From Chiloscyllium plagiosum (lineage: Eukaryota), in assembly GCF_004010195.1 (NCBI RefSeq), contig NC_057759.1, positions 7,181,746-7,233,441 on the forward strand: a stretch of DNA of 51,696 nt, read 5' to 3'. Numbering within the stretch: position 1 is the first letter of the stretch; every line of letters begins with the position of its first letter. The notes below the pieces were generated by a model, which had not been told where the DNA came from, did no database searches, and worked only from the letters and a program-made list of their open reading frames with translations. The translations under genes were made by a program, and so were the position numbers. Shown piece after piece: positions 23,754 through 51,696 of the stretch.

Positions 23754-24965
23754 ATGGCTCGTAAAATTGCTAAAGAGGTTCTGGAGTTTGAAGATGATTT
23801 CAACTTTGCCAAGAAAGTTTAGAAGGAAAGAAAACAGGCCATACATTTAGAATTAGCAAAGAATGTGGGTTTGGGTTTAGCGAAGGACAAAAGTAAAGCG
23901 GAATTTTTAAGGCAGTGATCAAACATACAAGTGTGTCAGAGAAACAGGCAAGTGCAGTAGAGATAGAAAAATTTCGAAAACAATTGAAGAAGATGGAGTT
24001 ACTAGATAAACAGAGAGGAAAGAGAGAGAGAGAAGGTTCCTAGCTGAGCGAAGAAAGAGAAAAGAGAGGAGAGAGAAGCGAAGAGAAGGGTAGGGAGGAG
24101 AGGAGAGAGAGGAGACACGAAAGGCAGAGAGGAGAGGAGAGGAGAGAAACAGAAAGAGAGAAAAGGTTCTAAGCTCAGTAAAAAGAGCGAATTTGATCTT
24201 GAGAAGTTGCGACTTAGTCAGTAAAGTCAAGTTAACAAGATGGAGATTAAAAGAGAAGTGTGTGTGTGTGCACGTGTGTGTGTGTGTTTGTGTCTGTGTG
24301 TGTGTAAACTCTGCCACATTTCGATGAGAAACATTTTGAGGCCTTCTGTATTGCATTTGAAAAATTGGCTATGCAGATGGAGTGGTCCGAGGATTTATGT
24401 GTAATGCTAGTTCAGACAAAACTGGTAGCCAGAACTAATGAGGTATTTGTCGCATTTTCAGATGAGGTGTCAACAGATTGCGAAAAAAAAATAGACTCTT
24501 TTAAGTGCTTAAGAATTGGCACTGGAAGCATATAGACAACGTTTCAGAGACACAAATAAGAAACCAGATCTAACATATGTTGAGTTCGAAAGAATTAAAC
24601 AGTCAATCAGTCATTTTGATAGATGGGTGCATGCTTTAAAAATGGATGCCTGAGGCTCTACAAGAGATTATTCTGCTGGAGGAGTTTAAAAACTCACTTC
24701 CAAGGATGGTAGGAATTTACGTGGAGGAACAGCAAGTTCAGGAAGTGAGAAGGGCAGCAGAATTAACAGATGAATGCATGTTTCTGCATAAGACAATCTT
24801 TCAGTCAGAATGTTGCCCTGTAAGGGACAAACGTTGGGAAAAAGGGAGGTCCTACAACATGAAACAGTGGGACACAGAAAATTAGATTGCCGGTGGTTTC
24901 AGAAGGACACTGGGAAAATGTGTCTTTACTGCCATAAGGTGGGACACGTAAAGTCATAGTGCAGG
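23754..24965 (+). pseudogene. gag: gag remnant: charged coiled-coil, capsid/SCAN-like domain, zinc knuckle
   Basis: ATG 23754; FEKLAMQMEW; EAYRQRFR (24525); LQEIILLEEFKNSLPRMVGIYVEEQQVQEVRRAAELTDE; CLYCHKVGHVKS*C (24921-24962); (TG)n at 24258-24305. Confidence 0.85.
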
Positions 24966-25179
24966 TCATTTAAAAAAGGCAATGTGGGAAAGATGCGGTC
25001 AAAGATGCTAAGCCAGTGGCCTTAACGAAGGTAGTAACGTAGACTGCAAGAAGAGCCGAGCCAATGCAGGACAGTGCACAGCCTAGGCAGGAGCTGGGCA
25101 TGGATTTAGTACCTGGTCTGTACAAAGAATTTACCTCTGTGGGTAAAGTTTTCTCAGAAAGAACGGGGGAGAAGAACAA

Positions 25180-25420
25180 GGCGTTATAATTTTGAGAGAT
25201 ACAGAACCTAACAAGTCGCTGATAGTAAGGAATGAGCGAATATGCACTATTTCTGATGTGTTACCCAAGAATATGGTAATTTTGGGGATAGATGGACAAA
25301 GATTTTACATTCCCCTATGTAAGATCAGGTTGGAATCCCACTTCAAGACTGGGGAATATACAGTGTGTGTGATTGACAGAGTGTCAGTTTGTTCTTGAGA
25401 ATGATATGGTAGGATCCAAG
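25180..25420 (+). pseudogene. Aspartic protease remnant
   Basis: ILRDTEPNKSLI, degenerate LRDTGA motif. Confidence 0.75.
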
Positions 25421-25719
25421 TTAGGAGTGATACTTCTTGTTGTGGAGAAGCCCAAAGAAGACCAAGAAACTGAGGAGCTAAAAAATAAATATCTTGGTAT
25501 TTTCCCAGACTATGTAGTAACCAGATCCCACTATCATTAGTAATAGTACGAAGCTAAAACTAAAAGAAACGTTGAAAGAGATGAGGTTCAGTTCACGGAC
25601 TCACTGTTTGATGTAATGGTGCAAGAAAAATCTAAACAGGCAGAGCGTCAGGCAGAAGTGTTTTGTCCTGAAAGGCTAGGAGATTTGCAACAGCAAGACA
25701 AGATGATAAATTGTATATT

Positions 25720-26655
25720 GCCCTGGAATGCACAAAGATGTGGTTAACCTTTGCTGGACATGTCATACATGCTAAATGGTAGTTAAGCCACAGGTGGTAG
25801 TAAAACAAGCAGCTTTGTTGCCAAATCTTGCATTTGATGAACCTTTCATGCGGGTTATAATTGATTGAGTAGGATTCTTCCCGAGAACTAAAAATGGGAA
25901 AAGGAACTTGTTAACCATAATGGATATGTCTACCAGATTTCTGGAGGGAATTCCATTACAGAGTCTCAAGGCAATAAAGGGTAGTAGAGGAGTTAGTAAC
26001 TGTCTACACAAAGTATGGCATACCCAGAGAGATTCAGTCGGATCAAAAGTCAAATTTTACTGCGAAGTTGTTTTGGGAGGTTATGGATAGTGTAGGTATA
26101 CAGCATTTTAAATCCACTGCGTACCATCCTGAAAGTTGGCATCAGACCTTGAGGACCATGTTGAGAGTATATTATCAGGGTTATCCAAAAGTTTGGGATA
26201 ACGGTATCCCAAATGTACTGTTTGCCATGAGATATGCTCCAAACGAATCTATTCAGTTCACTCTCTTTGAGTTAATATTCGGACATGAAGTGGGAGGCCC
26301 TTTGAAATTAAATAATTAAAAATTGTCAGGACCAAAATTGGAGATCTCACTCTTAGATTATGTATCAGAGGTGAGGGAGCAATTAAATTGAGTAGGTGAG
26401 TTAACTAAATAGCACCTAAAGAGAGCACAGTATAGAATGAAGCAGGTGGCCGGAAAAATCTCAGAGACTTGGACGTTTTCCGTAGGGGATGATGTGTTCG
26501 TACTGTTATCAGTGTCAGGAGAGCCCTTAAAAAAACAGAGTTAATGGTCCCTATCAAATTGCGAAAACATTGAGTCAGGTAAAATATCTAGTAAAGATGC
26601 CAGATACAATAAAATCAGTATCGGTTATGTCATACGTGCATCTTGAAACCGTACT
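25720..26655 (+). pseudogene. Integrase remnant
   Basis: CWTCHTC, EPFMRVIID*VG, LLTIMDMSTRFLEGIPL, PREIQSDQ, STAYHPES, FELIFGHEVGGPL, GPYQI. Confidence 0.92.
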
Positions 26656-26829
26656 AGTTGAGAGAGAAAGAACTAGAGAAACAGGTGTTAGTTACTGCCC
26701 CACAAAGTGAGGAATCAAATCCAGGTGATGTGGATTTTGATGTTCCTCAAAATAGGTTTAAAAATGAAAATGTCCTGGGGGAGAGTGATAGGTTCGTCAG
26801 CTACCAGTCTCAAGAGCATAGAACTACAG

Positions 26830-28371
26830 TATAAGGAAATATTTAAGAATCAGATGGGGAGGAATAATGCTATTGTACGTGAAGTAGACATAGGGAATAC
26901 TGCTCCGATAAAACAACACCACTATTGTCTTAATCCTTTCAAAGCCAGACAGGTCTAGAAGGACGTCGAGGCCATGCTCGACAAGCATATCATTGAACCA
27001 AGCCAGAGACAGTGGAGTTCACCGATCGTCTTAGATCCCAATCCGGATCAATAGGACAACACTGTTACAAAATCAGACTCAGACCAAATTTCTAGATTGG
27101 CAGACTATATCGAGAAAGTCAGTCAACCCAGTTGCCTCACCAAGTTGGAATTAATGCGTGGTTACTGTTTGGTACCTATATCAAAGACGGCAAGGAATAT
27201 TTCTGCGTTTGAAACCCCAAATGGGTTATATCAAGTTAAAGTGATGCCCTTTAGAATGAAGAACGCACCCGCCATATTGGAAAGTCTCATTCAGTGTTGT
27301 GGCTGGGTTAACAAAAAGTGCAGTTCATTTGAACGATGCAGTGATTGATAGTAAGTCCTGAAAAGATCACATGGTACAGTTAGCAGAGTTATTTGAATGA
27401 CTACGAGAAGCAAATTGAATTTGCAAAAGTAGTGGGAGCATTCTTGGTACATGACATCGGTCATGGAAGGTTTACTTCACGGAATGCAAAGACAAAGGCC
27501 ATCAAGGAATTTCCATAACCAACGTCAAAGAAAGAGGTGTTTCGATTCCTGGAACTCCTGTTCCAAACTTCAGTTGTGTTATGACACCGATAACGGGTTT
27601 GCTGAAGAAAAACTCGAAGTTTCAGTGGTTAGAACAATGCCAGCAGACATTCAACCATTCAAATCAATACTAGCCGCCAAACCATAACATGCAGTTTAGT
27701 TACACCAATCTTTCCAAAAACTTTAAAGTCGTCATCGATGCTAGTGACATAGGAGTTGCAACAGGTTCTAGATTAGAGTGGTGCTGGAAAAGCACAGCAG
27801 TTCAGGCAGCATCCGAGGAGCAGGAAAAAGCCCTTAATCAGGAATAGAGGCAGAATGCTTGCAGGGTGGAGAGATATTTAGCTCTCCACCCTGCAGGTAC
27901 TCTGCCTCTATTCCCGATGAAGGGCTTTTGCCAGAAACGTCGATTTTCATGCTCCTCGGATGCTGCCTGAACTGCTGTGCTTTTCCAGCACCACTCTAAT
28001 CTAAAATCTGGTTTCCAGCATCTGCAGTCATTGTTTTTACCTAGCTGCATTGCTCAGGAAGTTGAGGATGGAGTTGAGCTGCCAGTTGTATACTTTTCGA
28101 GGAAGCTCAACATCCACCAGAGGAAATGCTCCACGATTGAAAAGGAAATATTGAGTGTGCTACTGGCCTAACAACATTTTATTGTGTATTCACGATCAAG
28201 GTGTCGGAGATGGTTGTGTGCAGGGAACACATTTCTTGCATCCTAAAGACGTTTTCTGACATGAATATGAGACTATTGAATTGCAGTGTGATATTACAGA
28301 CTTTTAATTTTAAAATTGCTCATGTACCTGGTCTTAAAAATGCAATCGCAGATGTGTTATTGTGGATTTAA
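26830..28371 (+). pseudogene. Reverse transcriptase and RNase H remnant, interrupted at 27761-28042
   Basis: PIKQHHY, IIEPSQRQWSSPIVL, SAFETPNGLYQVKVMPFRMKNAPA, IDASDIGV, PVVYFSRKL..STIEKE, HVPGLKNAIADVL. Confidence 0.92.
27761..28042. mobile_element. Near-perfect PLE-derived hairpin inserted in Gypsy RNase H
   Basis: About 110-125 bp arms around ggagag-atatttag-ctctcc; ccgatgaagggcttttgccagaaacgtc; putative TSD agttgca (27754-27760) / agctgca (28043-28049). Confidence 0.88.
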
Positions 28372-30362: not shown

Positions 30363-30420
30363 GGTCTCTCTCTCTCTCTCTCTCTCTCGAGGTGAATGTG
30401 CAGGACCGACCATGCTCCGT

Positions 30421-30831
<411 letters not shown>

Positions 30832-31711: not shown

Positions 31712-31737
31712 TTTGGGTTCGCTGGAAAAGGATCGCT

Positions 31738-32052
31738 TTATCCTCGGCCGCCGAATCCATAGAGGGTGCGGTTTTGGTGATTCAGAGTATACACCACATC
31801 CATGGTGGCGACCGTCTTGCGCTTGGCGTGCTCAGTGTAGGTGACCGCATCCCTGATCACATTCTCCAGCAAAACCTTCAGCACCCCGCGGGTCTCCTCG
31901 TAGATCAAGCCCGAGATGCATTTGACCCCGCCACGGCGAGCCAGGCGGATGGCTGGTTTCGTGATGCCCTGGATGTTATCACGGAGCACTTTGCGGTGCC
32001 GTTTCGCTCCACCTTTTCCCAGGCCTTTTCCTCCTTTGCATCTTCCAGACAT
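31738..32052 (-). pseudogene. H4: Histone H4, open frame but divergent (probable pseudogene)
   Basis: [104 protein letters not shown]; nine substitutions, one codon deleted, two-residue extension. Confidence 0.9.
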
Positions 32053-32105
32053 CACGCTTCTTCACTCCAATTACCGCCGAATGAGAGCCGAGCTGCCTCC
32101 CCTTC

Positions 32106-48669: not shown

Positions 48670-49130
48670 GCTTCTCAAGTGTTGCATTGATCCAGACAAG
48701 TGGGAAGCATTCCATCACACTCCTGACTTGTGCCTTATCGATAATGCGGAGGCATTGGCAGGTCAGGAAGTGAGCTATGTGCTGCAGAATTCCCATCCTC
48801 TGACGTGATCTTGTTGCCACAGTATTTATATTGATTCAGTTTAACTGAGTATGGACAGAGTGGGATTCAGTGATGGTGATGATATTGAATGTCAAGGAAC
48901 AATGGCTAGATTCTCATTCAATGTTGATTGTGTGTGGGGGCGTGCGGGGGGTGGTATATTGAGTGATGGTCATAGTATTGAATGTCAAGGATTGATAGTT
49001 AGATTACCTTTCAGTGGTAACCTCCAGAATATTGATAATGGTGGTGGGAGGTAGGGGTTCGGGGTGTGGGGAGTAAGGATTCACAGATGGTGATAGCATC
49101 AAATGTCAACGAGTGATGGTTAGAATCTCT
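48670..49130 (-). mobile_element. L2/Crack-like LINE fragment with internal triplication
   Basis: KAQVRSVMECFPLVW; homologous to 2945-3230. Confidence 0.8.
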
Positions 49131-49394
49131 TGCCAATATAGAATTGAATCAGGGAAAGTGCCTAAGTAAGCAATTAAAAATAATTTCAATACAGAAGAGC
49201 AACACTAAAATCACCAACGTAGCTGAAGGTCAAAGAGGCTCGACTGGATGTATGGAGAAGTGTTTATTGTTAATGGTGTGATTGGCGTCCAAATGTTCAG
49301 AACAAAGCACAGAAATAAAGCGATGAATTAAGCTCTGTTTGACCATTTCTACCATCATGACCAAACTGGTGAACTACAATGAGTTTGATGGCTG

Positions 49395-49493
49395 CTATTT
49401 CACTGTTGCATAAAGGGAAGGTTCTCTCCTCCAATGTTGTCCGGAGATTGTGCATAAATCTGTAGCATCTACCGTATCATATACATACTCCAA
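49395..49493 (-). CDS. Candidate terminal coding exon of an ITIM-bearing receptor
   Basis: Acceptor tgtttatttctcttccag, then LEYVYDTVDATDLCTISGQHWRREPSLYATVK*; AATAAA on minus strand at 49263-49268. Confidence 0.55.
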   Translation of the reverse strand: MEYVYDTVDATDLCTISGQHWRREPSLYATVK

Positions 49494-49679
49494 CTGGAAG
49501 AGAAATAAACATTTGATACTGGTGAATAACATTGCACAATTGAAGTGGTCTGTCACTTCATTTGTCTCTCCTCTCCCCGCTCCCATCACCCATCCTTATC
49601 TTTATGTTATTCATACTGGGGCTTTCCCATAGATGGCATGCATATTGACCGACATAAAAGTCCATTGGAACTTAGACAG

Positions 49680-50520
49680 TAGAAGTAGGAGAAGGCCATT
49701 CAGCCCTTTGAGCCTGCTCACTCATTCATTACTGTCACTATTGATCACTCTATGTGCTTGACTTTGGCTCTTTGGTCATTAAGAGATTGGCAAGAAATGA
49801 GCAGCACAGACAACCCATGAATAAATATTTGGAATGTTCCACATTTCACCACTCCCACCTCCTAATACCATTTGATTCCCTTTACCTTTAACTCTATCTA
49901 ACACCTTCTTGAAGTCATACAATGTATTGACCTTAACCGCATTCTGTGCCAAATAGTTCAACAGGCTCCCAACTCTCTAGTTGAAGACATTTTTCCTCAT
50001 CTCAGTCTTAGCCCATCCCCTTTAGACAGCGGCCCACTTGGTCTGGACTGTCTCCCAATCACTAGGAACTTCTTTCCTATGTTTAAACTGTGTACACCTG
50101 TTAGGATATTATAAAGTTTCAGTGAGATTCCCATTTTTTTTCTAAACTACAGTGAATATAATTCCAATTCATCTATTCTGTCTTCATACGTCAGTCCTAC
50201 CATCCCATGAATGAGCCTTTTAAACCTTTGCTGCACTCCTTGCTAAGATAGAACTTTCTTCCTTTGGTAAGGCGGACATAACTGCACACAAAGTATTCCA
50301 GGGTATAGTCTCACCATGTACATTTGGAGCAAGACATTCCTGCTGCTAGACTCAAATCCTCTCACTATGGAGACCAACATACCAACTGCCTTCCTAGCCA
50401 TCAGCTGCTGCTGCACAGCTGACTTTCAGTGACTGGTGTCTATGGGGCACCCAGGTCTCACTGACCATCCTCCATCTCAATAAACAACCATTACAGTAAT
50501 AATGTGTCTTTCCGCTTTAG
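49680..50520 (-). mobile_element. CR1 3' ORF2 and UTR, decayed
   Basis: gtaggagaaggccattcagccctttgagcctgctc tail; actgcacacaaagtattccagg is reverse of LEYCVQ. Confidence 0.8.
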
Positions 50521-50549
50521 CTATCCAACCTCGTGTGGGTGAAGCATAA

Positions 50550-50852
50550 AACCTAGTGTCATTATTGCTAGACCAGTAATCTCAATCCTCACTATAGTAC
50601 ATAATGGAACTTGATTCCAGTTTCTAAAAAAAAAACGCAATATGGATTTACATGTCTTAATGATGGCTATGAAACTGGTTCACTAATATCCTTTAGGGAA
50701 GGGAACTGTTATTCTTTTCTGGTCTGATCTACGTGTGACTCTAGACCCACAGAAATGTGGGCTGAATCCCAGCTGCTGTCAGGGCAAACATTGGTGAGGG
50801 AAAACAAATACTGCGCCTAACCAGTGATGCCCACGTACCATGAATGAAGAAA
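50550..50852 (+). mobile_element. tRNA-derived SINE with L2/Crack-like 3' tail
   Basis: ctggttcactaatatcctttagggaagg, ctggtctgatctacgtgtgactctagacccacag, ccagtgatgcccacgtaccatgaatgaa. Confidence 0.75.
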
Positions 50853-51099
50853 CAAAACGTAATAAACACATCAAAATAAGTTTAGTACCATAAAAATATA
50901 GAATGCTAAAACCGTTTTGCAGTGAAATAATTTTCCCCTTTGGGACTATCTTGTTTGCACAGGCTGAAGGGAGAGCAATTTTGCCCCATTCCACTTTGCA
51001 GTTTGCCTTCAGCAGACTTAAAAAATATGGCATATCAAGTGCCTCTCAGATAATCTTTTTAAACTGCTTTGGTTTTTGGAAGGAAATCATTGCTCGCCC

Positions 51100-51620
51100 A
51101 GAGTTATGAAGCACGAAATTAGACCCTTCAGTCTAACTCGTCCAGGCTGACCAGGTTTTGCAAACTGAACTAGAACCAGTTGTTTGCGATAGGCCCATAT
51201 CCCTCTCAATCCTATCTGCACAAGTACTTTTCCAGATGTCTTAAGTGTTGTAATTATACTCATCACCTCCTCTGGTACCCTCTGTGTGAAAAGCTGCCTC
51301 TCTGGTCCCTTTTAATTCTTGCTTCTCTCACCTTAAAGCTATGCCCTCTGGTTTTAGACTCCCATTCTCTGGGGGAATAAGAACTTGTCTACTCAGCTTA
51401 TCTCCCTCACTGCTGATCTGATAAACCCCTCTATGGTCACCACTCCAAAGCTGCTTGCTACTCAAATCTTCCAGTTTTAGTAACTCGCTTAGAAGTTTTT
51501 TCTTCACATGTCCCAGTTTAAAAAGATCATTTCTGTAGCAGGGAACCAGAATTATACGCAGTACTCTTACTGTGACCTTAACAATGTCTTACAGTATGTA
51601 CCATACTTTTACACACTGTG
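51100..51620 (-). mobile_element. CR1 3' end, decayed
   Basis: agacccttcagtctaactcgtcc, accctctgtgtgaaaagctgcc, accagaattatacgcagtactc. Confidence 0.8.

Positions 51621-51622
<2 letters not shown>

Positions 51623-51696
<74 letters not shown>
51623..51696. repeat. (CT)n microsatellite running off the window end
   Basis: Uninterrupted tc repeats. Confidence 0.98.

What the first reader, a model, noticed from the sequence alone, without database searches (positions are those of the whole stretch)
49263..49515. Hidden terminal exon of a putative inhibitory immune receptor
Seen: in a non-repetitive island, a strong acceptor is followed by 32 codons, a stop and AATAAA about 130 nt later. The peptide has YVYDTV and ends EPSLYATVK*, a match to the ITIM consensus (S/I/V/L)xYxx(I/V/L), with the two motif tyrosines 23 residues apart. 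Known: LILRB/PIR-B-type receptors end in very similar PS(I/V)YATL motifs, and tandem tyrosine motifs recruit SHP-1/2. Inference: last exon of a minus-strand receptor gene whose other exons lie beyond the right end of the window, possibly an uncharacterised chondrichthyan receptor family. Family identity cannot be determined here.
Basis: partly seen in the sequence, partly recalled or inferred. Interest (0 to 1): 0.7.

Follow-up and report, generated by a model that had tools for sequence, protein, structure and literature searches.

The report
Shark inhibitory Ig-receptor's last exon
This is the real, spliced last exon of an already predicted but unstudied bamboo-shark gene for a six-Ig-domain surface receptor with an inhibitory signalling tail, from a shark family that resembles mammalian LILR/KIR and Fc-receptor-like proteins.

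Summary
The exon is real. Its 32 residues equal residues 686-717 of RefSeq XP_043539894.1 (LOC122544686, Chiloscyllium plagiosum, 'uncharacterized'): signal peptide, six C2-type Ig domains, uncharged transmembrane helix, 69-residue tail. Contigs from two probable RNA runs stop matching exactly at acceptor 49493. All three listed coding differences in the more distant organism are synonymous in this frame. A Mustelus homologue keeps both tyrosines, the 23-residue spacing and the terminal ITIM (20 of 32 identical); a Heterodontus paralogue keeps the tyrosines but not the ITIM. YVYDTV is not a consensus ITIM. So the exon is not hidden, but the family is undescribed in the papers I could search: 9 shark proteins from 7 species, shuffled domains, tandem paralogues, one distant frog relative. 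Folds resemble LRC receptors (OSCAR, CHIR, PIR-B, KIR), with PECAM-1 tied. Neighbouring gene IDs hint at a human-1q21-like (Fc-receptor) block, not the LRC. Best reading: a leukocyte inhibitory receptor recruiting SHP-1/2. Expression site, ligand and family membership are untested. It may matter for dating the Fc-receptor/LRC superfamily, reported absent from sharks in 2014.

The parts
49494..49509 (-). Polypyrimidine tract and CAG splice acceptor of the last intron (phase 0)
   Evidence: Sequence. Contigs of runs X1 and X2 begin to match exactly at 49493, and both have zero depth at 49510-49621.
49395..49493 (-). Coding part of the terminal exon: 32 codons plus TAG, residues 686-717 of XP_043539894.1 (LOC122544686)
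   Evidence: 32 of 32 identical.
49470..49487 (-). YVYDTV, Tyr690: conserved YxxV/I docking site, not a consensus ITIM
   Evidence: The tyrosine is kept in Mustelus (YDMV) and Heterodontus P0013 (YRMI); position -2 is Y, H or R.
49401..49418 (-). SLYATV, Tyr713: consensus ITIM at the C-terminus
   Evidence: SLYATI in Mustelus; PIYDNI (not an ITIM) in Heterodontus P0013.
49250..49394 (-). 3' UTR
   Evidence: The X2 contig covers 49250-49493; its one indel lies at 49388, outside the coding part.
49263..49268 (-). AATAAA poly(A) signal, 127 nt after the stop
   Evidence: The X2 contig ends 13 nt beyond it; this fits a cleavage site, but contigs cannot prove an end.
49510..51696 (-). Last intron, running off the right end of the window; holds repeat fragments and a (TC)n tract; no further exon found
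   Evidence: no joint from 49493 into 49494-50600.

Best explanation
The stretch is the spliced terminal exon of a bamboo-shark gene (LOC122544686 or its orthologue in a very close congener) for a 717-aa type I membrane glycoprotein. SHOWN: signal peptide, six tandem C2-type Ig domains, a transmembrane helix with no charged residue, and a disordered tail with three YxxI/V sites (Y670 upstream of this exon, Y690 and Y713 in it). INFERRED mechanism: a leukocyte inhibitory receptor of the Fc-receptor/LRC superfamily. Ligand binding or co-clustering with an activating receptor lets a Src-family kinase phosphorylate the tail. pY713 (ITIM) plus pY690 or pY670 engage the two SH2 domains of SHP-1, SHP-2 or SHP-2L, whose phosphatase activity damps activation. 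The ligand is unknown; MHC class I, Ig Fc or collagen are candidates by analogy with LRC and FcR members. The gene belongs to a small, fast-evolving, domain-shuffling shark family.
For: Identity to the RefSeq model: 32 of 32. Architecture: (mean pLDDT 74.6; tail under 50). Splicing: 2 of 2 probable-RNA contig runs laid break exactly at 49493; the X1 contig has 111 other letters before it and 0 differences over 101 nt. Frame: 3 of 3 listed coding differences in X2 are synonymous third positions, p about 0.012. Conservation: Mustelus tail 20 of 32 identical against 42-47% in the Ig domains, with the same 23-residue spacing, also kept in Heterodontus P0013. No mid-membrane charge in any of the 8 shark proteins with a transmembrane helix. 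Ectodomain profile: PIR-B 1.6e-22, FCRL5 5.1e-22, CEA 1.4e-17, KIR3DL1 1.4e-6, FcERIa 4.3e-6. Folds: PIR-B ranks first in both Foldseek runs; 9 of the top 11 non-redundant matches are LRC domains. [quoted passage not shown] Teleost LITR tails recruit SHP-1/2 through ITIMs (PMC4810170, passages).
Against: No biochemical or cell data. Only Y713 is a consensus ITIM in more than one species: Y670 fits in Chiloscyllium only, and Y690 fits in none. Heterodontus P0013 ends in PIYDNI, a YxN-type site (recalled as Grb2-type). The terminal exon could be compared in only 3 of 9 shark proteins; the other models end early or in unrelated sequence. Four of the 13 differences in X2 lie near contig ends and were not listed, so Y690 is unchecked there. 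X1 and X2 are RNA by guess, and the letters upstream of the junction were not displayed. Leukocyte expression is not shown: the gene is not among 8,645 cluster-marker rows of a bamboo-shark single-cell atlas (PMC11372145, supplement file 3, cut when stored). PECAM-1 ties in fold Z-score and leads the Atlas feature search.
Confidence: 0.7

Rival explanations
1. Identity rival A: the family is the shark branch of the Fc-receptor/FCRL locus (human 1q21-23 paralogon), i.e. an FCRL- or LITR-like receptor, possibly binding shark Ig.
For: Gene IDs next to LOC122544686 are named CDC42SE1 (...689), APH1A (...693), RPS27 (...699), MCL1 (...708), SHE (...717) and many histones (...495-601). The first five map to human 1q21 (recalled), where FCGR1A lies beside a histone cluster (recalled). 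The window itself holds an H4-H3 pair. FCRL5 is the best single-sequence PDB hit (1.9e-16), and the Mustelus homologue is auto-named FCRL5.
Against: Adjacent gene IDs are not proven linkage, and only genes that are cluster markers were visible. Single-domain fold match: FCRLA Z 10.4, 16% identity against CHIR-AB1 Z 12.3, rmsd 2.2, 28% identity. FCRL5 and PIR-B tie in the profile search.
Confidence: 0.4
2. Identity rival B: a true LRC-lineage receptor (LILR/PIR/KIR/CHIR/OSCAR clade) surviving in sharks.
For: 45 of 50 VIA rows are LRC domains (redundant entries); 9 of the top 11 in the non-redundant library; PIR-B is first. It has six domains, like PIR-B. Exon shuffling and local expansion are described as typical of the LRC (PMC6557307, passages) and are seen here.
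Against: Identities are only 17-28%. PECAM-1 is within 1 Z unit. No LRC flanking gene (TTYH1, LENG8, RPS9, TSEN34, named in PMC6557307) appears among the neighbouring IDs seen. No activating partner with an NxxR or Lys helix among the 8 shark transmembrane helices.
Confidence: 0.25
3. A PECAM-1/allergin-1/HIDE1-type molecule: a six-Ig homophilic adhesion receptor with a tandem-tyrosine tail.
For: Atlas features rank PECAM-1 clusters first (0.97), then allergin-1 and HIDE1 (0.96). PECAM-1 D1-D2 Z 13.2 and 11.8. Pfam Ig_C19orf38 passes its cut-off.
Against: Only 13-14% identity to PECAM-1. It is absent from the best 60 of 82 profile hits. Atlas TM-scores are 0.45 or lower. Other bamboo-shark genes carry the PECAM-like name. 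Domain number and order vary between paralogues, unlike a conserved adhesion orthologue.
Confidence: 0.08
4. Mechanism rival: the tail is a mixed docking platform rather than purely inhibitory. YDxV could bind Nck or SLP-76, and YxN in a paralogue could bind Grb2 (motifs recalled), as in catfish IpLITR 1.1b, which also signals without SHP.
For: Y690 is conserved but never has an ITIM residue at -2, and a Heterodontus paralogue has YDNI in place of the ITIM. SHP-independent signalling through Csk is described for IpLITR 1.1b (PMC4810170, passages).
Against: The best-conserved block between Chiloscyllium and Mustelus is the terminal ITIM and the residues just before it.
Confidence: 0.2
5. Chance pattern or dead exon.
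For: Acceptor + terminal ITIM + AATAAA occurs 0.6 times per simulated window.
Against: RefSeq match, two contigs breaking at the acceptor, synonymous-only changes and cross-order conservation.
Confidence: 0.01

Closest known systems
RefSeq model LOC122544686 / XP_043539894.1 (Chiloscyllium plagiosum, 'uncharacterized protein')
   Same: The exon peptide is its last 32 residues, letter for letter.
   Different: Nothing in sequence. The record has no family name or function; whether the window comes from that very assembly was not established.
Mouse PIR-B / human LILRB (LRC inhibitory receptors)
   Same: Six (PIR-B) C2-type Ig domains, uncharged transmembrane helix, C-terminal ITIM; best profile and Foldseek match.
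   Different: 17-19% identity; one conserved consensus ITIM rather than several; no activating partner found; no LRC synteny seen; MHC binding untested.
FCRL5 / FCRL family and teleost LITRs
   Same: Long C2-only ectodomain with shuffled domains and tyrosine tail; FCRL5 ties with PIR-B in the profile search and is first for the single sequence; neighbouring gene IDs look 1q21-like. LITRs are likewise intermediate between FcR/FCRL and LRC (PMC4810170).
   Different: Fold match to FCRLA is about 2 Z units below the LRC match; no LITR or FCRL protein came up in the word-limited homologue searches; Ig binding untested.
PECAM-1, allergin-1, HIDE1
   Same: Six Ig domains plus a two-tyrosine tail (PECAM-1); top language-model features; HIDE1-type Pfam domain.
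   Different: 13-14% identity to PECAM-1, no sequence hit, variable domain content among paralogues.
Frog Nanorana parkeri LOC108792363 (P0015)
   Same: Aligns over 387 columns with the membrane-proximal domains and helix (25% identity, probability 99.6); the only non-shark hit (3.7e-28).
   Different: The gene model is fused to an olfactory receptor, so its tail is missing; it is also uncharacterised.

Membership tests
ITIM-bearing IgSF inhibitory receptors (functional class) | Type I membrane protein with Ig ectodomain and uncharged transmembrane helix | tested here: met
ITIM-bearing IgSF inhibitory receptors (functional class) | Conserved cytoplasmic (S/I/V/L)xYxx(I/V/L) | tested here: met
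   Y713 in Chiloscyllium and Mustelus; not kept in Heterodontus paralogue P0013. Consensus as given in PMC12151841.
ITIM-bearing IgSF inhibitory receptors (functional class) | Phosphorylation-dependent SHP-1/SHP-2/SHIP recruitment and inhibition | not testable with these tools
   Needs pull-down and cell assay.
LRC (LILR/PIR/KIR/CHIR/OSCAR) | C2-only ectodomain of LRC domain type | tested here: inconclusive
   LRC domains lead all fold searches, but PECAM-1 is within 1 Z unit and FCRL5 ties by profile.
LRC (LILR/PIR/KIR/CHIR/OSCAR) | Domains group with LRC domain subtypes in phylogeny | not testable with these tools
   No reference LRC sequences could be fetched into the session.
LRC (LILR/PIR/KIR/CHIR/OSCAR) | Synteny with TTYH1, LENG8, RPS9, TSEN34 block | tested here: inconclusive
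   No genome held. Neighbouring gene IDs seen are 1q21-like and histone genes, but ID order is only a hint and the list is partial.
LRC (LILR/PIR/KIR/CHIR/OSCAR) | Paired activating members with Arg (NxxR) or Lys in the helix | tested here: inconclusive
   0 of 8 shark helices carry a mid-membrane charge; proteins under 221 aa were not searched, and the searches were word-limited.
FcR/FCRL | Domains of the D1-D5 FcR subtypes | tested here: inconclusive
   FCRL5 1.9e-16 and 5.1e-22; FcERIa about 4e-6; FCRLA Z 10.4; no tree.
FcR/FCRL | Location in the human chromosome 1q21-23 paralogon | tested here: inconclusive
   Suggestive gene-ID neighbourhood and a histone pair in the window; human map positions recalled; linkage not shown.
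FcR/FCRL | Ig Fc binding | not testable with these tools
   Needs a binding assay.
PECAM-1 | Sequence orthology with fixed six-domain order | tested here: inconclusive
   Not among the best 60 of 82 profile hits; 13-14% identity in fold alignments; features score 0.97; paralogues have 3 to 7 domains.

The most novel reading that the evidence does not exclude
Sharks keep a cluster of C2-only leukocyte receptors with LRC-type domains inside the Fc-receptor (1q21-like) paralogon, with a frog relative. This family would descend from the common ancestor of Fc receptors/FCRL and the LRC, dating that superfamily and its ITIM brake to the jawed-vertebrate ancestor, against the 2014 claim that both arose in bony fish. 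It would be a testable candidate for the shark MHC-I 'missing-self' or Ig-Fc inhibitory receptor.
Probability: 0.3. Interest if true: 0.7.

Novelty: new member of a known kind. Interest (0 to 1): 0.42.

Why it matters
The exon itself is ordinary and already modelled. The family matters because the origin of LRC and Fc-receptor-like genes is open. Akula 2014 (PMC4016189, passages) found no FcRL and no C2-only LRC homologues in sharks; Guselnikov 2019 (PMC6557307, passages) calls the time of LRC origin unclear; a 2026 survey (PMC13262535, passages) lists KIR/LILR as mammal-specific; the whale-shark paper (PMC8455134, passages) found no lectin NK cluster in cartilaginous fish. A shark receptor with LRC-like folds, a conserved terminal ITIM and possible 1q21-type neighbours is a concrete, cloneable candidate for how shark leukocytes are inhibited. 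The surprise is tempered because FCRL-like names are already auto-assigned to other bamboo-shark genes and used in print (PMC11372145, section 9).

Tried and rejected
No whole genome is held, so upstream exons, paralogue count and true synteny could not be read. Single-cell runs X8 and X9 (one sample, tissue unknown, about 2 and 6 in 100 of each run read): X8 laid 24 reads, none on the exon and all partial on repeat-like stretches; X9 laid none, so this is no test of expression. phmmer of the 32-mer against 1.84 billion representatives gave 3 hits, all tandem-repeat proteins, rejected as artefacts. The Atlas gave no usable hit for the 32-mer. Both full-length homologue searches scored only about 8,000 word-sharing candidates, so the lack of rays, chimaeras and bony fish is not evidence of absence. 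No FcgammaR, FcepsilonRI or FCRL chain is among the 50 rows; this does not exclude them. The two terminal Lys residues flagged in P0009 and P0013 helices sit at the cytoplasmic edge and were not counted as activating. Ten paper searches found no description of this family; the library lacks most subscription journals. The bamboo-shark genome paper, whale-shark paper, elephant-shark paper (its one held supplement gave 0 hits and may not be the main supplement), a fish immunity review and PMC4701786, PMC9652883, PMC8562567 were term-searched only and had nothing on it. In PMC11372145 the supplement was cut when stored and one PDF was too large, so later tables may list the gene. Three look-ups of earlier findings returned nothing. 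No complex prediction was run: phosphotyrosine binding cannot be modelled there.

Full report
Observation. On the minus strand a pyrimidine tract ends in CAG at 49494. Phase 0 reads 32 codons and TAG (49493-49395); the other two phases close after 7 and 4 codons. AATAAA follows 127 nt after the stop. The two motif tyrosines are 23 residues apart. SLYATV fits the ITIM consensus; YVYDTV does not, because position -2 is Tyr. The pattern alone is only moderately unusual: acceptor + terminal ITIM + AATAAA arose 0.6 times per simulated window, and with a second YxxI/V/L 0 times in 40 windows; in the real window 1 of 280 acceptor frames had both ITIM and poly(A) signal.

The exon is spliced in this frame. 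Four runs were laid on 48950-50600. A 212-nt contig of run X1 matches 49493-49393 with no difference and carries 111 other letters before 49493. A 252-nt contig of run X2 (another organism label) matches 49493-49250 with 7 other letters before it. Both break exactly at the acceptor, and neither has depth at 49510-49621. Both runs are RNA by guess only, and the upstream letters were not displayed. Of 13 differences in X2, 9 were listed. The 3 in the coding part are synonymous third positions in phase 0 and non-synonymous in the other phases (p about 0.012 at a synonymous share of 0.227); the one indel is in the UTR. Four differences near the contig ends were not listed, so Y690 is unchecked in X2. 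The X2 contig ends 13 nt past AATAAA. The two single-cell runs gave no read on the exon, which is no test (unknown tissue, small share read).

The gene. A protein search returned 1 hit of 1 candidate: XP_043539894.1, 'uncharacterized protein LOC122544686' of Chiloscyllium plagiosum, 717 aa, whose last 32 residues are this peptide. It has a signal peptide, six tandem Ig domains of about 100 residues (Pfam Ig_2, Ig_3, ig, Ig_C19orf38), ten N-glycosylation sequons, a helix at about 622-648 without charge and a tail of about 69 residues. AlphaFold gives six beta-sandwiches (mean pLDDT 74.6, pTM 0.40) and a disordered tail. The tail has a third site upstream of this exon, LDYPMI (Y670), which fits the ITIM consensus. 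No other exon is in the window. The window is from this species or a close congener; I did not establish which.

The family. Two searches of about 8,000 word-sharing candidates each gave 9 shark proteins from 7 species (C. plagiosum, C. punctatum, Stegostoma, Heterodontus three times on contigs of identical length, two Scyliorhinus, Mustelus) and one frog protein at 3.7e-28. Domain content is shuffled: D1-D5-D6 and D1-D2-D4-D5-D4-D5-D6 in Heterodontus, (D2-D4-D6) twice in the Mustelus model. The terminal exon can be compared in 3 of 9 proteins. Mustelus keeps 20 of 32 residues, both tyrosines, the 23 spacing and SLYATI, against 42-47% identity in its Ig domains. Heterodontus P0013 keeps both tyrosines and the spacing (9 of 32) but ends in PIYDNI, which is not an ITIM. 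The other six models end early or in unrelated sequence; the S. canicula model diverges exactly where this exon begins, as a phase-0 read-through would. Y670 is kept as YxxI in Mustelus and S. canicula, without the ITIM residue at -2. None of the 8 shark helices has a mid-membrane charge. The frog protein aligns over 387 columns with the proximal domains and helix but is fused to an olfactory receptor model.

What it resembles. The family profile against solved structures ranks PIR-B (1.6e-22) and FCRL5 (5.1e-22) level, then CEA, KIR3DL1, FcERIa and LILRB1; PECAM-1 is not among the best 60 of 82. Foldseek ranks PIR-B first for both models. VIA-align gives 45 of 50 rows to LRC domains for the full protein (redundant entries; multi-domain rmsd about 10 A because of hinge angles). 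In the non-redundant library, run on the Heterodontus three-domain paralogue, 9 of the top 11 are LRC domains: OSCAR Z 12.4, CHIR-AB1 Z 12.3 (rmsd 2.2 over 90 residues, 28% identity), LILRB4 Z 11.7 (rmsd 2.4). PECAM-1 is tied at 11.8 (14% identity) and FCRLA scores 10.4. The Atlas features favour PECAM-1, allergin-1 and HIDE1 (0.96-0.97), with TM-scores of 0.45 or lower. So the domains lean to the LRC type, without a clean margin.

Where it may lie. No genome is held. A published marker table for bamboo shark uses RefSeq gene IDs (PMC11372145, supplement file 3, searched by term). LOC122544686 is not among its 8,645 rows. Neighbouring IDs are named CDC42SE1, APH1A, RPS27, MCL1 and SHE, with many histone genes just below. 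Those five genes map to human 1q21, where FCGR1A lies beside a histone cluster (recalled, from no call). The window holds an H4-H3 pair, which fits. The same ID block has an 'IGSF1-like' myeloid marker and 'PECAM-like' and 'perlecan-like' B-cell markers, which may be further multi-Ig receptors; I could not fetch them. ID order is a hint only: unrelated genes (haemoglobin, haptoglobin, COUP-TF2) appear about 80-110 IDs away.

Mechanism. Shown: exon, splicing, frame, architecture, conserved tyrosines. Inferred: an inhibitory leukocyte receptor whose tail is phosphorylated by a Src-family kinase and binds the tandem SH2 domains of SHP-1, SHP-2 or SHP-2L through pY713 plus pY690 or pY670. These phosphatases are reported in sharks with conserved pockets (PMC12151841, passages), and catfish LITR tails work this way (PMC4810170, passages). 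I put this at 0.7. A mixed docking role (0.2) is the main mechanistic rival, since Y690 is never a consensus ITIM and one paralogue has lost the terminal one. Ligand and cell type are unknown.

Comparison and novelty. It works like PIR-B/LILRB, but membership of the LRC, of FCRL/LITR or of PECAM-1 is inconclusive on every feature I could test. Akula 2014 found no FcRL and no C2-only LRC homologues in sharks and suggested a common ancestor for both loci (PMC4016189, passages). Guselnikov 2019 calls the LRC's origin unclear (passages). A 2026 survey lists KIR/LILR as mammalian (PMC13262535, passages). A 2024 atlas already uses fcgr1a-like, fcrl3 and fcrl5 names for bamboo-shark B-cell genes (section 9), so FcR-like receptors in sharks are not unheard of. 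Ten searches found no description of this family, but most subscription journals are not held, and supplements that I could not see may bear on this.

Verdict. A real, annotated, uncharacterised gene: a new member of a known kind (ITIM-bearing C2-Ig receptors), interest 0.42. The bolder reading, a shark survivor of the FcR/LRC ancestor with LRC-type domains in a 1q21-like block, has probability about 0.3 and would deserve 0.7.

Noticed in passing
window 30420-30830 and 31730-32055, minus strand: A tandem H4-H3 histone gene pair that looks degenerate: H3 has frameshifts near its start; H4 lacks one codon, has many substitutions and has lost its normal stop frame. Pseudogenes or assembly errors at the edge of a histone cluster.
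   Followed up: partly
PMC11372145 supplement, gene IDs LOC122544480, LOC122544513, LOC122544517: Genes auto-named IGSF1-like (myeloid marker, log2FC 6.2), PECAM-like and perlecan-like (B-cell markers, log2FC 4.5 and 4.7) share the ID block of this gene and may form a cluster of shark multi-Ig leukocyte receptors.
   Followed up: partly
P0015 (Nanorana parkeri LOC108792363): The only non-shark relative is a gene model fusing about four Ig domains and a helix to an olfactory receptor, probably two adjacent genes.
   Followed up: partly
P0008, P0009, P0013 (Heterodontus francisci): Three paralogues on contigs of identical length (27,249,576) with 7, 6 and 3 domains and different tails; P0013 ends in an EPIY-type, YxN site instead of an ITIM.
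   Followed up: partly
P0006 residues 48-96 and 147-197: Domains 1 and 2 each carry two extra cysteines, shared by most homologues, suggesting a second disulphide; the Ig domains almost lack tryptophan.
   Followed up: no
window 24600-27700, plus strand: Broken gag-, protease-, integrase- and reverse-transcriptase-like frames of what looks like a Gypsy-type LTR retrotransposon, recognised by eye from the ORF list.
   Followed up: no
window 49670-49730: A short high-copy repeat inside the last intron draws most of the reads and contigs laid.
   Followed up: no
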